From Eledone cirrhosa (taxonomy: Eukaryota), in assembly GCA_964016885.1 (NCBI GenBank), contig OZ024740.1, positions 139,562,001 through 139,626,000 on the forward strand: a DNA stretch of 64,000 bases. Reading direction: 5' to 3'. The position numbers and the translations under genes were made by a program. Of this stretch, positions 21,362-62,495 are shown piece by piece (position 1 is the first letter of the stretch; each line of letters starts with the position of its first letter). The notes under the pieces were generated by a model that saw only the letters and a list, made by a program, of their open reading frames with translations, was not told the origin of the DNA and made no database searches.

Positions 21362-21426
21362 TATTTTGTCTGATGAAGGCATACCATAATTTAATTTGGT
21401 ATCCCTGAAATATGTATAATGAAATA
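21362..21426 (+). ncRNA. Type I hammerhead ribozyme, family F3
   Basis: tattttgt-CTGATGA-aggcatacca[taatttaatt]tggtatccct-GAAA-tatgta-TA-atgaaata. 8-bp stem I includes two G-U pairs. Confidence 0.75.
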
Positions 21427-21989
21427 AATATGGTTTTATAAATATAGTTTCCATTTATTAATATCGTATATATATATATATATATATATATATATATATA
21501 TATATATATATATATATATACAGAGAGAGAGAGAGAGAGAGAGAGAGAGAGAGAGAGAGAGAGAGAGAATAGAAAATGAAAAATCAGTGCTGCATCTGAA
21601 CTCAATTTATTGTGTGTTACAATTGTTTCGCCGGCGGACAGTTCGAGACGCAATCATTGTGTGGATTTGTCTGATTCTGGACCCGCAGGTTCGACGGACA
21701 CGTCTAATGATTTCGGAGCATTTTCTCTCACTAAGATGGAAGCATCTTAGCTACCATCAGACACACACACATATATATATATATATATATATGTGTGTGT
21801 GTGTGTGTGTGTGTGCAAGCCTGTTTATAAACATGTAACACACACACACACACACACACACACACACACACACACACACACACACACACACACACACACA
21901 CACACACACACATATATATATATATATATATATATATATATATATATATATATATATATATATATATATATATATATATATATATATAT

Positions 21990-22368
21990 ATGGTGGTTGC
22001 CAACTCGTTTTCGAGTACGGCCACTACTTTATATCCATGTAACCCCTACCGATGCGCTGAACGAGTGTGACTTTTTAGTCCAGCCAGCGACTTGAAAACT
22101 CTGATACAAACACTACACTTGTGACAATTATTGACACAGTGCTGGGCCCATGGTACGGTACCATGTGACGACAAGTGCAGAGAGATCTCCAGATATAAAG
22201 CAATGCCTGTGCCTTGAAGCTTTTATAGTCAGCAAAGGCACTGCACAAAGCCAGTCCCACTCTCTTAACCAAGATGATATTTACCAAAAAGAAGAACAAG
22301 TCAACATCATTGGATACCATCCGAGTTGCAGGTGTTATATCAGAGCTTTCCTTCTAGAATTCTGCCTT
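21990..22368 (-). mobile_element. Non-autonomous RTE-derived element, 5'-truncated copy
   Basis: High identity to 31050-31640, 33597-34205 and 53752-54262. Confidence 0.75.
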
Positions 22369-22642
22369 ATACATATATATATATAAATGTATATATTATA
22401 TATATATATATTGTATATATATGTGTGTGTGTGTATACATTCATTCTTATAGTAATTTATTTTTTACTGGTTATGGAACTTTTGTCGATCCGCTGAATTT
22501 TCCGACAGAGTATATGCTCATTACCGGACTAAACACGAGAAACAATTTATAGACAGATGGCATATATTAACAAACACAAGTTCAAATACAATCACATACT
22601 CCACCCTCAATATATATATATATATATATATATATATATATA

Positions 22643-24648
22643 TTGGAATAAATGCTCTGAAATAGCGATATATATGTGAATATAGACATAGAATATTCGA
22701 AAATATTCTGTATGTTTATAATAAACATTTTGAAGACCTAATCGCTATAGAATAGAATACGTCACGTATTACAATTAGATTCTCGATAAAAGCAAGGGAA
22801 GTAATCTACGCGTTTCATTCTTGTTAGAATTCATCAGGACTACATATCCAGTGCTTTTATCGAGAATGACACAGCTAGAGACTTATAGAATACTTAGCTG
22901 TGTACAGGAACTGGTTTGAAAGAGCGGTTGCCGGTCCGGCAGAAATTAGAAATTGGAATAAATGCTCTGAAATAGCGATATATATGTGAATATAGACATA
23001 GAATATTCGAAAATATTCTGTATGTTTATAATAAACATTTTGAAGACCTAATCGCTATAGAATAGAATACGTCACGTATTACAATTAGATTCTCGATAAA
23101 AGCAAGGGAAGTAATCTACGCGTTTCATTCTTGTTAGAATTCATCAGGACTACATATCCAGTGCTTTTATCGAGAATGACACAGCTAGAGACTTATAGAA
23201 TACTTAGCTGTGTACAGGAACTGGTTTGAAAGAGCGGTTGCCGGTCCGGCAGAAATTAGAAATTGGAATAAATGCTCTGAAATAGCGATATATATGTGAA
23301 TATAGACATAGAATATTCGAAAATATTCTGTATGTTTATAATAAACATTTTGAAGACCTAATCGCTATAGAATAGAATACGTCACGTATTACAATTAGAT
23401 TCTCGATAAAAGCAAGGGAAGTAATCTACGCGTTTCATTCTTGTTAGAATTCATCAGGACTACATATCCAGTGCTTTTATCGAGAATGACACAGCTAGAG
23501 ACTTATAGAATACTTAGCTGTGTACAGGAACTGGTTTGAAAGAGCGGTTGCCGGTCCGGCAGAAATTAGAAATTGGAATAAATGCTCTGAAATAGCGATA
23601 TATATGTGAATATAGACATAGAATATTCGAAAATATTCTGTATGTTTATAATAAACATTTTGAAGACCTAATCGCTAAACATACAGAATATTTTCGAATA
23701 TTCTATGTCTATATTCACATATATATCGCTATTTCAGAGCATTTATTCCAATTTCTAATTTCTGCCGGACCGGCAACCGCTCTTTCAAACCAGTTCCTGT
23801 ACACAGCTAAGTATTCTATAAGTCTCTAGCTGTGTCATTCTCGATAAAAGCACTGGATATGTAGTCCTGATGAATTCTAACAAGAATGAAACGCGTAGAT
23901 TACTTCCCTTGCTTTTATCGAGAATCTAATTGTAATACGTGACGTATTCTATTCTATAGCGATTAGGTCTTCAAAATGTTTATTATAAACATACAGAATA
24001 TTTTCGAATATTCTATGTCTATATTCACATATATATCGCTATTTCAGAGCATTTATTCCAATTTCTAATTTCTGCCGGACCGGCAACCGCTCTTTCAAAC
24101 CAGTTCCTGTACACAGCTAAGTATTCTATAAGTCTCTAGCTGTGTCATTCTCGATAAAAGCACTGGATATGTAGTCCTGATGAATTCTAACAAGAATGAA
24201 ACGCGTAGATTACTTCCCTTGCTTTTATCGAGAATCTAATTGTAATACGTGACGTATTCTATTCTATAGCGATTAGGTCTTCAAAATGTTTATTATAAAC
24301 ATACAGAATATTTTCGAATATTCTATGTCTATATTCACATATATATCGCTATTTCAGAGCATTTATTCCAATTTCTAATTTCTGCCGGACCGGCAACCGC
24401 TCTTTCAAACCAGTTCCTGTACACAGCTAAGTATTCTATAAGTCTCTAGCTGTGTCATTCTCGATAAAAGCACTGGATATGTAGTCCTGATGAATTCTAA
24501 CAAGAATGAAACGCGTAGATTACTTCCCTTGCTTTTATCGAGAATCTAATTGTAATACGTGACGTATTCTATTCTATAGCGATTAGGTCTTCAAAATGTT
24601 TATTATAAACATACAGAATATTTTCGAATATTCTATGTCTATATTCAC
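22643..24648. mobile_element. Hammerhead-ribozyme tandem array 2: 310-bp units in two head-to-head arms, inserted in (TA)n
   Basis: HHRs on - at 22801, 23111 and 23421; on + at 23861, 24171 and 24481. Junction ~23677. Same outer ends as array 1. Confidence 0.92.
23861..23903 (+). ncRNA. Type I hammerhead ribozyme (representative of 6 copies in array 2)
   Basis: gtagtc-CTGATGA-attct aaca agaat-GAAA-cgcg-TA-gattac. Perfect 5-bp stem II, predicted cleavage after 23897. Confidence 0.9.
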
Positions 24649-60000: not shown

Positions 60001-60915
60001 ATATATATAACTATGTGTGAAGGCTTAGTGGACAGGGCTTTGGGCTTGCAATCGGGTAACGCCTTGCGTCCTTGAGAAAGACATTGTATTTCAAGTTGTT
60101 CCAGTTCATTCAGCTCTAGAAATGAGTTGCAATCTCGTGCATACGAGTGGTAAGGCATAATATTCTGCCATGGTTGCACCACGGCCTAAAAGAAGCTATT
60201 GCAAATATGCATATGGGACCAAACTATCAGTGTGTGTATTAATGCCTTTCCCTTCCATATACTGTACCAATTGTGTTGTTATTTCTGTTTACCTTTTACA
60301 TACATACATACATACAAATATATATATATATATATATATATATATATAATGGAAAAATTTGAACAGGAACAGAACAGAGAGGCAGTACAACGAATGTTTA
60401 TTCATTTCACGCTCTCTCTCTCTCTCTCTCTCTCTCTCTATATATATATATATATATATATATATATATATATATATATATATATATATATAATATATAT
60501 ATATATATATATATATATATATGTGTGTGTGTGTGTGTGTGTGTGTGTGTGTGTGTGTGTGTGTGTGTGTGTGTGTGTGTGTGTGTGTGTGTGTGTGCGT
60601 GTGTGTGTCCGTGTGTGTCCCCGTGTATATTTGCATGCTTGTATCCATATGTTTTCTTTTCTTTTATACTGTAACGTAGTGGTTTGGGAAATACAGGTTG
60701 ATAGAATATAACGAAAGAAGTACTCAGCTCATAACCCAGGAGGACTGCAAATGCAAACATACATATGTATGCATATATGTTTGCATATATAAATATATAT
60801 AGTTAATTTTAACCTGCTGACTTTATACTTCATGTATATATATATATATATATATATATATATAAACATGAAGTATAAAGTCAGCAGGTTAAAATTAACT
60901 TGACTAATCATAATC

Positions 60916-60974
60916 GCTGTTATATATATTTCGCTGATTACCGTTATGCAACAGCTATGACCTCATCAGACAGC
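60916..60974 (-). ncRNA. Type I hammerhead ribozyme, family F6
   Basis: gctgt-CTGATGA-ggtcatagctgttgcataacggtaatcagc-GAAA-tatata-TA-acagc. Inverted truncated homologue at ~61068-61170. Confidence 0.72.
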
Positions 60975-62119
60975 TAGAATTTGAACAGAGAAAACAGTAA
61001 AAACATAAAGATGAAATAAATTATATGCTCCAGGTTGAATTTTGGTGTTGTTTCTTCAAGGCACCGTGGCATAGCTGTTCCATAACGGTTATCACCGAAA
61101 CATATATATGATAGCGTCTATGAATAAGCGAAGTTAATTTTAACCTGTTGACATATACTTCATGATTATAAATATACTCAGGATTAAACAGACCCGGCTG
61201 CGCACTTCGTCGACTGTTCTAACCTGTATACTGAAGTGTCGATGATCAACCGACACATACTCTAATTATATATATATACATACATATATATACGTATATA
61301 CATACATATATATATATATATATATATATATATATATATATATATATATATACGTATATACATACATATACATACATATATATATATATATATATATATA
61401 TATATATATATATATATATATATATATATATATATATATATATATATATATATATATATATATATATATATATATATATATATATATATACGTATATACA
61501 TACATATATATATATATATATATATATATATATATATATATATATATATATATATATATATATATACGTATATACATACATATATATATATATATATATA
61601 GAAGTGTGGTAAGGAACCAGGTGGACCATAACGCACCAGAGTACTCAATACTTTGGGTACTAGAGTGGGTAATAGGAAAATGAGCCCTTTCGACGGCTAT
61701 TTCTGGACTAGACGGCTATTTCCGTCCAGAAATAGCCGTCGGGACAGCTTGAGTCCTGCCGTCGGAGTCTTGAACATTTTCCTATATATATATATATATA
61801 TATAAAATTGCAGGTTTGAAGAATTATTATATAAAATATATCCAGTCTTTCCTCACTCTAGTCCGTAGAAAACAACTAGATAAATAATCATTTAAACGGA
61901 GCTATAAGTTTAAAACTATGAAGAAATAATAGACAAATAATACAGACTATTTTCCGCGAGGAACAGTCAGATAAAATTTACCCAGTCTTTCCTGTTAGCC
62001 CATAGAAATTAACTAGACAAATAATCAATTAAACAGAGCTAAGTCTAAAATATAAGTTAGAAGAAAAATGCATATAAACTTTACCAAAAATTCATATATA
62101 AATATATATATATATATAT

Positions 62120-62495
62120 ACAATATTAAATAAATGGAAAACTATATTTATAAAACCATATATATTTCATTATATATATTTCGGGGATATCATATTAACA
62201 ATATGCTATGCCTTCATCAGACAAAATACAATATAAACAGTTTTATAGATAAATATATTCGACATACCGTAATAAACATCAACATCATTTGAAGAGGTTC
62301 ACTCTAGCTAGAGTGAACCTCTTCAAATGAAGTTGATGTTTATTACGGTATGTCGAATATATTTATCTATAAAACTGTTTATATTGTATTTTGTCTGATG
62401 AAGGCATAGCATATTGTTAATATGATATCCCCGAAATATATATAATGAAATATATATGGTTTTATAAATATAGTTTTCCATTTATTTAATATTGT
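62120..62495. mobile_element. Spacerless ~375-bp palindrome of family F3 with two outward-facing hammerheads
   Basis: Centre ctctag|ctagag at 62307/62308. HHRs at 62163-62228 (-) and 62387-62452 (+): tattttgt-CTGATGA-...-GAAA-tatata-TA-atgaaata. Confidence 0.88.

What the first reader, a model, noticed from the sequence alone, without database searches (positions are those of the whole stretch)
21362..62452. At least five further unrelated small families each carry a type I hammerhead, all beside (TA)n
F3: 21362-21426, 62163-62228, 62387-62452 (stem III TATATA/TATGTA). F4: 26653-26695, 46855-46897 (CTAG). F5: 45824-45871. F6: 60916-60974 (TATATA). F2: ~24808-24847 and ~55920-55965. With the arrays (CGCG), this makes roughly 20 motifs in 64 kb. 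The stems differ in sequence but preserve pairing, and most have self-complementary stem III, suggesting dimeric activation. This points to a large radiation of ribozyme-bearing non-autonomous elements (or solo Penelope pLTRs) specialised on (TA)n.
Basis: partly seen in the sequence, partly recalled or inferred. Interest (0 to 1): 0.8.

Follow-up and report, generated by a model that had tools for sequence, protein, structure and literature searches.

The report
Ribozyme-bearing Penelope retrotransposon end stubs
The hammerhead ribozyme motifs are real, but they mostly sit in clipped end-pieces of a known kind of jumping gene (Penelope-like elements) that lands in TA repeats, and four of the five families share a small hairpin just past where copies stop, which likely tells the copying enzyme where to start.

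Summary
Real, mostly a known kind. The window holds 17 descriptor-passing type I hammerheads (shuffles 0.06); 12 belong to the arrays. Evenly spaced genome samples give about 1 per 10 kb, so the window is ordinary apart from the arrays.

The families are not all unrelated or non-autonomous. F3 is the 3' end of a coding Hydra-clade Penelope-like element (PLE). F6 leads to a decayed Hydra-type endonuclease. F4 is a non-coding 429-nt tandem unit (retrozyme-like). F2 and F5 parents are untraced. All show the PLE signature: two fixed 3' ends, inverted pairs, and 124 of 150 ends running into (TA)n.

The added feature: F2, F3, F5 and F6 share a bulged hairpin 7-9 nt past the short end. It is doubled in F3's parent and visible in published coral and sea-cucumber Hydra consensi. 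It likely positions reverse transcription (untested). This scan reported that hairpin before on other DNA of this genome; I found it in none of the papers read.

The parts
21251..21467 (+). F3 copy a: 5'-truncated 3' end (pLTR) of a Hydra-clade PLE, short end into (TA)n; hammerhead 21362-21426
62121..62583 (.). F3 inverted pair: left arm (-) with short end, right arm (+) with about 90-nt tail; hammerheads 62161-62230 (-) and 62385-62454 (+)
62502..62524 (+). Tail hairpin (RCUC-stem-YY-GAGYRCU) of F3
63932..64000 (+). F3-related end fragment with tail hairpin, cut by the window edge
60865..61266 (.). F6 inverted pair: left arm (-) with hammerhead 60916-60974 and short end; right arm (+) decayed, with long end and decayed hairpin 61176-61218
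59854..59971 (.). F6 fold-back remnant without a core
26450..26776 (-). F4 copy a: part of a 429-nt non-coding tandem unit, short end; hammerhead 26653-26695
46670..47200 (.). F4 copy b: (-) arm with hammerhead 46855-46897 (stem I mismatch) and short end; inverted (+) arm with long end
45800..45933 (.). F5 copy a: mismatched hammerhead 45824-45871 (-) joined to its own inverted tail 45885-45933 (+)
17924..18037 (.). F5 copy b, decayed, core lost
24793..24985 (.). F2 fold-back: direct arm (+) with decayed hammerhead 24848-24899 and tail hairpin 24924-24946; inverted arm 24793-24847 lacks stem I
55891..55997 (-).
52011..52176 (.). F2 fold-back, decayed
19951..20058 (.). F2 deletion derivative
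6125..6281 (.). F2 fold-back, decayed
57721..57914 (+).
48340..50763 (+). 5'-truncated coding PLE (RT + GIY-YIG, one in-frame stop at 49582-49584), long end into (TA)n; not Hydra clade (DKG motif)
50474..50509 (+). Hammerhead-like motif of that PLE with a variant core (CAGUUGA in place of CUGANGA)
59170..59300 (+). F8 (also 54293-54596 and 61602-61769): two-ended, TA-flanked family with the tail hairpin; GAAA and a stem III-like palindrome but no CUGANGA found
18207..19903 (.). F1 inverted 310-bp array (6 hammerheads); context only
22642..24656 (.). F1 inverted 310-bp array (6 hammerheads); context only

Best explanation
These are short 3' end-pieces of several Penelope-like retroelement (PLE) families, each carrying a type I hammerhead motif, likely left when a PLE reverse transcriptase-endonuclease cut a (TA)n tract and copied only the end of its RNA. 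Shown: F3 is the 3' end of a coding Hydra-clade PLE; F6's upstream DNA reaches a decayed Hydra-type endonuclease; F4 is a non-coding 429-nt tandem unit; every family has two fixed 3' ends, usually beginning with TAT/ATAT, and often forms an inverted pair with one end of each kind; F2, F3, F5, F6 (and F8) carry a bulged hairpin 7-9 nt past the short end, and F3's parent carries a second one 9 nt past the long end. Inferred: the protein grips that hairpin on the RNA and starts reverse transcription a few bases upstream, where the RNA's UAU pairs with the nicked (TA)n; two hairpins give two start sites and so the optional tail; two primings at one cut give the inverted pair. F4 is inferred to be a retrozyme copied in trans from a tandem or circular RNA. 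The hammerhead is likely a passenger in most of these dead stubs. Confidence: 0.9 for PLE-end identity, about 0.55 for the hairpin's role.
For: F3 lies about 1.5 kb downstream of 743-816 aa frames on the same strand in 4 of 4 long copies. The protein shows RWR, DKT, YRDD, CxCX5C, CxxC and CxH, matching the Hydra description in PMC8557442; it aligns to the window's PLE protein at 23% over 442 aa, E 2e-4, and 131 genomic matches were scored. F3 copies are variably 5'-truncated, 64-1739 nt shared upstream in 25 of 25. F6: of 20 loci, L241 has a Hydra-type endonuclease piece (E 3.7e-8) in DNA shared with L244 and leading to F6; L256 has another (E 1.5e-20) whose linkage is not shown. F4: 26 of 41 long ends read on into the unit start, and 0 of 31 copies share non-unit upstream DNA. 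Two ends. Hairpin: 13 clusters of two or more copies; inner stems pair 32 of 39 within families against 20.9 +/- 2.7 across permuted families (0 of 20,000); the outer pair is A-U in 18 and G-C in 4 of 26 cluster representatives; modal TA onset at -8 (F8, 23 of 29), -7 (F3 short) and -9 (F3 long, 23 of 30). The same hairpin follows the hammerhead in Hydra-2_Amil and Hydra-2_Ajap and is doubled at the start of Hydra-1_Ajap (supplement File S7, read by eye). Two internal RT starts bounding the tail, AT-rich cleavage, a need for RNA 3' of the starts, and insertion without hammerhead cleavage are shown in vitro for an Anolis PLE (PMC11167929).
Against: No coding parent was reached for F2 (0 of 25 loci with a same-strand PLE frame within 1.5 kb, though about 0.8 kb of non-coding upstream DNA is shared) or F5 (11 loci share only 53-77 nt, its inverted tail). 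F3's parent protein has no Pfam RT or GIY-YIG hit; clade assignment rests on motifs and by-eye comparison, not a tree. The hairpin is clear in 3 of 6 published Hydra consensi, partial in 1 (Crog) and not evident in 2 (Hydra-1_Amil, Hydra-1_Obim). F3's second hairpin has a weak inner stem (mean 0.8 pairs). No read-through was seen past the long ends of F2, F5, F6 or F8 (0 of 8, 4, 13, 41), so doubling is shown here for F3 only. F1, F4 and the window's PLE have two ends without this hairpin. F3's short-end tally has a second peak at -10 (29 against 36 at -7) and is not deduplicated. The pattern used to collect hairpins fixes the outer stem letters. None of the 11 hammerhead stretches folds much better than shuffles (z from -1.56 to 0.86). 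No cleavage, expression or binding was tested.
Confidence: 0.8

Rival explanations
1. Each family is an independent non-autonomous ribozyme element (retrozyme) that amplifies as a short unit through hammerhead-cut RNA circles.
For: True in form for F4 (429-nt unit, 97-98% identical copies, head-to-tail read-through) and the F1 arrays. F2 fold-back junctions cluster (24 of 32 arms at offsets 6-7, from loci picked for likeness to a fold-back query).
Against: F3 and F6 lead into coding DNA. F2 junction offsets range from 6 to 17 and non-fold-back copies extend about 0.8 kb upstream. F8 junctions differ from copy to copy.
Confidence: 0.12
2. The elements are PLE ends, but the hairpin acts at the DNA level or at a later step: the endonuclease recognises it and resolves the intermediate, which creates the tail.
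For: PMC8557442 attributes the tail to endonuclease-mediated resolution. PMC11167929 recounts that the Drosophila Penelope endonuclease needed the tail sequence for cleavage.
Against: G-U pairs and a polarised bulge fit one RNA strand. In vitro the two ends are RT start sites. The hairpin lies outside the short-ended copy, so it is absent from that product.
Confidence: 0.25
3. The link to (TA)n is secondary: TA runs grew from AT-rich ends after insertion, or copies are merely tolerated there.
For: TA runs cover 4.8% of the sampled genome and 6.3% of the window; element ends begin with TAT.
Against: 217 of 252 terminating ends over eight families abut (TA)>=4 against 8% at random, including near-identical young copies. 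Hydra and Naiad insertion into (TA)n is reported.
Confidence: 0.07

Closest known systems
Minimal type I hammerheads in pLTRs of metazoan PLEs (Cervera and de la Pena 2014, PMC4209133; parts 1-2 of 4 read)
   Same: Several consensus families per genome, mostly single motifs from truncated PLEs, pairs 100-700 bp apart on opposite strands, long helix II with an unpaired base at its foot, palindromic helix III, proposed dimer activity.
   Different: Density here is about 1 per 10 kb; that paper reports about 2,000-9,000 minimal motifs per genome, with a different descriptor.
Hydra clade of C-terminal EN+ PLEs (Craig et al. 2021, PMC8557442; passages and supplement parts 51-53 of 59 read)
   Same: F3's parent has the RWK-like, DKT, CxCX5C, CxxC and CxH motifs, a canonical hammerhead, (TA)n insertion, inverted 5'-truncated copy and one-sided tail.
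   Different: 3' UTR about 1.5 kb and tails of 60-100 nt rather than 30-40; the tail hairpin is not mentioned (0 hits for hairpin or stem-loop in the main text) though visible in its File S7.
Metazoan non-LTR retrozymes (PMC7229834, passages; bioRxiv 10.64898/2026.07.22.740005, parts 1-3 of 5)
   Same: F4 and F1: AT-rich non-coding units of 310-429 nt with one type I hammerhead, in tandem; proposed PLE origin.
   Different: F4 copies are partial tandems with PLE-type two-ended, inverted insertions; circular RNA and cleavage not tested here.
Poseidon element PAc of Anolis carolinensis (Frangieh et al. 2024, PMC11167929; parts 1-2 of 4 read, supplementary figures not seen)
   Same: Two internal RT start sites bounding the tail; AT-rich target; hammerhead upstream and dispensable for insertion in vitro.
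   Different: Starts there lie in an AC-rich stem-loop and are said not to be homologous to the target; here ends begin with TAT matching (TA)n and precede a different, cross-family hairpin.

Membership tests
Type I hammerhead ribozyme | CUGANGA and GAAA cores, NUH site, three helices closed by stem I | tested here: met
Type I hammerhead ribozyme | Self-cleavage | not testable with these tools
   no assay
Minimal PLE hammerhead | Short palindromic helix III | tested here: met
   F3, F4, F6 yes; F5 nearly; F2 no; 181 of 244 over all loci
EN+ PLE insertion | RT plus GIY-YIG frame upstream of the pLTR | tested here: met
   F3 4 of 4 long copies; window PLE; F6 decayed
EN+ PLE insertion | RT frame upstream of F2 and F5 | tested here: inconclusive
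   F2 0 of 25 within 1.5 kb; F5 11 loci too short
EN+ PLE insertion | Variable 5' truncation, inverted 5' copy, one-sided tail | tested here: met
Hydra clade | DKT, RWK-like, CxCX5C linker, CxxC and CxH motifs | tested here: met
   read in the translations against the description
Hydra clade | Placement in the RT phylogeny | not tested
   no tree built
Non-LTR retrozyme (F4) | Non-coding tandem unit with a type I hammerhead | tested here: met
   429-nt unit, longest sense Met-frame 36 aa, tandems in L014, L016, L196
Non-LTR retrozyme (F4) | Circular RNA intermediate | not testable with these tools
   no RNA data laid
Non-LTR retrozyme (F3, F6) | No coding parent, tandem unit | tested here: not met

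The most novel reading that the evidence does not exclude
Hydra-clade PLEs use one small bulged RNA hairpin, conserved from corals and sea cucumbers to this genome, as the docking site that fixes where reverse transcription starts; its tandem duplication creates the PLE tail, and a dozen otherwise dissimilar families in this genome share it as a passkey to one enzyme type, leaving on the order of 300,000 hammerheads in (TA)n tracts.
Probability: 0.5. Interest if true: 0.7.

Novelty: new member of a known kind. Interest (0 to 1): 0.45.

Why it matters
The ribozyme radiation itself repeats a published pattern, though at a high density. The useful part is the shared hairpin. How PLE enzymes, the closest relatives of telomerase, choose their start site and why insertions have an optional tail is open. 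A motif of about 25 nt at a fixed distance from both ends makes that testable in an existing kind of in vitro assay, and gives a marker for assigning anonymous short repeats to Hydra-clade machinery.

Tried and rejected
Rfam scan of the whole window: the 150 listed of 454 matches were microsatellite look-alikes of miRNA and other families, all under their gathering scores; no hammerhead family among those shown; uninformative. My first reading of the DNA just upstream of F6 as an endonuclease C-terminus was dropped; the coding trace lies about 1.2 kb further up. PLE fragments near F4 copies are neighbours, since the DNA between is not shared. F8 as a full hammerhead: no CUGANGA upstream in 17 copies, so it is not counted. 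A PLE-tail match to the Hydra hairpin in the window's own PLE was considered and not supported. Monomer folding energies did not separate motifs from shuffles. Sequencing runs for F4: no RNA holder listed; no reads laid. Lunse et al. on PLE hammerhead variants is not held, so the variant core at 50474-50509 could not be checked against it. The bioRxiv paper's supplements and Frangieh's supplementary figures were not seen and may bear on the novelty of the hairpin.
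Full report
OBSERVATION. The cores are at the stated places. A type I descriptor allowing one bulge or mismatch finds 17 motifs in the window, against 0.06 on average in 100 local dinucleotide shuffles. Twelve are units of the two 310-bp arrays. The two F2 motifs are not intact. Two further motifs were missed: 57737-57771 and a variant at 50474-50509.

IS THE WINDOW SPECIAL? That is about one per 10 kb, or roughly 180,000-420,000 if the sample is representative. Without the arrays the window has 5 in 64 kb, which is ordinary. 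Each named family returned 43-79 matches from 40 scored candidates; these are lower bounds.

ANATOMY. Every family has two fixed 3' ends, 30-100 nt apart, variable 5' truncation, and often an inverted pair with one end of each kind. In F2-F6, 124 of 150 terminating ends run into (TA)>=4; over eight families 217 of 252; random positions 8% (loci were picked by likeness to the queries and seven duplicate or window-overlapping sets were left out). Where read-through copies exist, the sequence after the end mostly starts with TAT or ATAT. This is the PLE insertion structure of Craig et al. (PMC8557442, passages).

PARENTS. F3 lies about 1.5 kb behind frames of 743-816 aa in 4 of 4 long copies. The motifs match the Hydra clade, which is reported to carry canonical hammerheads and insert into (TA)n. 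Pfam does not recognise this protein; it aligns weakly to the window's own PLE protein, and the Atlas neighbours include GIY-YIG and RT-bearing clusters at 0.96-0.97. F6 leads, in 2 of 20 loci sharing upstream DNA, to a decayed Hydra-type endonuclease. F4 is a 429-nt non-coding unit: 26 of 41 long ends continue into the unit start and none of 31 copies shares other upstream DNA. F2 has about 0.8 kb of shared non-coding upstream DNA but no frame within 1.5 kb in 25 loci. F5's parent is untraced. The window also holds a coding PLE of another clade at 48340-50763 with the same two-ended, TA-flanked form; F7 resembles its tail.

THE SHARED HAIRPIN. F2, F3, F5, F6 and F8 carry RCUC, a variable stem-loop, a two-base bulge and GAGYRCU. 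Across 13 clusters the inner stems pair in 32 of 39 positions within families against 20.9 +/- 2.7 when arms are permuted between families; the outer pair is A-U in 18 and G-C in 4 of 26 representatives. The TA run starts mostly 7-9 nt before RCUC. In full-length F3 ends a second, weaker hairpin lies 9 nt past the long end. In Craig's File S7, read by eye, the hairpin is clear in 3 of 6 Hydra consensi (doubled in Hydra-1_Ajap), partial in 1 and not evident in 2. F1, F4 and the window's PLE lack it; F4 has a different short motif behind both of its ends (by eye).

MECHANISM. Shown by others in vitro for an Anolis PLE: AT-rich cleavage on both strands, two internal RT starts that bound the tail, a need for RNA 3' of them, and insertion without hammerhead cleavage (PMC11167929). 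Inferred here: the Hydra protein docks on the hairpin and primes a few bases upstream where UAU pairs with nicked (TA)n; two hairpins give two ends; priming on both strands gives the inverted pair; early stops leave stubs of 130-450 nt that still hold the hammerhead because it lies 50-230 nt from the end. The main rival is an endonuclease role for the hairpin. Dimer cleavage is plausible from the palindromic stem III (PMC4209133; review PMC6765202) but untested, and inverted pairs do not give two sense copies.

COMPARISON AND NOVELTY. Multi-family minimal hammerheads from truncated PLEs, opposite-strand pairs, 16 families in a coral (PMC7229834), retrozymes as PLE derivatives (bioRxiv 2026.07.22.740005) and (TA)n targeting are in print. 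Seven paper searches and word look-ups in Craig's main text showed no description of the hairpin; subscription journals, Lunse et al. and some supplements were not seen. After reaching this reading I found that earlier reports of this scan describe the same twin hairpin on other DNA of this genome; they are unchecked notes, not independent support. Verdict: real, new members of a known kind, with one undescribed and testable cis-element. Interest 0.45.

Noticed in passing
window 50474-50509 (+): The coding PLE's hammerhead-like motif has a variant core (positions 4 and 6 swapped relative to CUGANGA), the same in 28 of 33 matched copies and aligning with the canonical core of F7; activity unknown.
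   Followed up: partly
window 54293-54596, 59170-59300, 61602-61769: F8: young (97-99%) two-ended family with the Hydra hairpin; all 17 copies examined break off just before a GAAA, so its hammerhead, if any, is cut within stem II.
   Followed up: partly
window 26450-26776 and L014-L024: F4 has its own short repeated motif (a GGU/GCC stem followed by ACUAA) about 8 nt behind both ends, suggesting a different PLE partner.
   Followed up: no
window 36275-38224 (+): Open 649-aa non-LTR RT frame (RVT_1, zf-RVT), unrelated to the finding.
   Followed up: partly
window 20194-20438, 6440-6625, about 45530-45700: Long palindromes next to TA runs without a hammerhead core; possibly fold-backs of further PLE families.
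   Followed up: no
window 12364-14512: Array of 153 copies of a 14-bp unit, 96% alike.
   Followed up: no
window 21992-22367, 31030-31637, 33599-34226, 53771-54282: Four copies of another repeat, 88-96% alike, some beside TA runs; no hammerhead by the descriptor.
   Followed up: no
L197-L236: At least ten more hammerhead families in the random sample, nested densely in some stretches (5 hits each in L232 and L233); 29 of 37 have A at the cleavage position.
   Followed up: partly
L009, L022, L177, L179, L181, L252, L272: Further Hydra-type frames 33-60% identical to F3's parent, so several Hydra families live in this genome.
   Followed up: no
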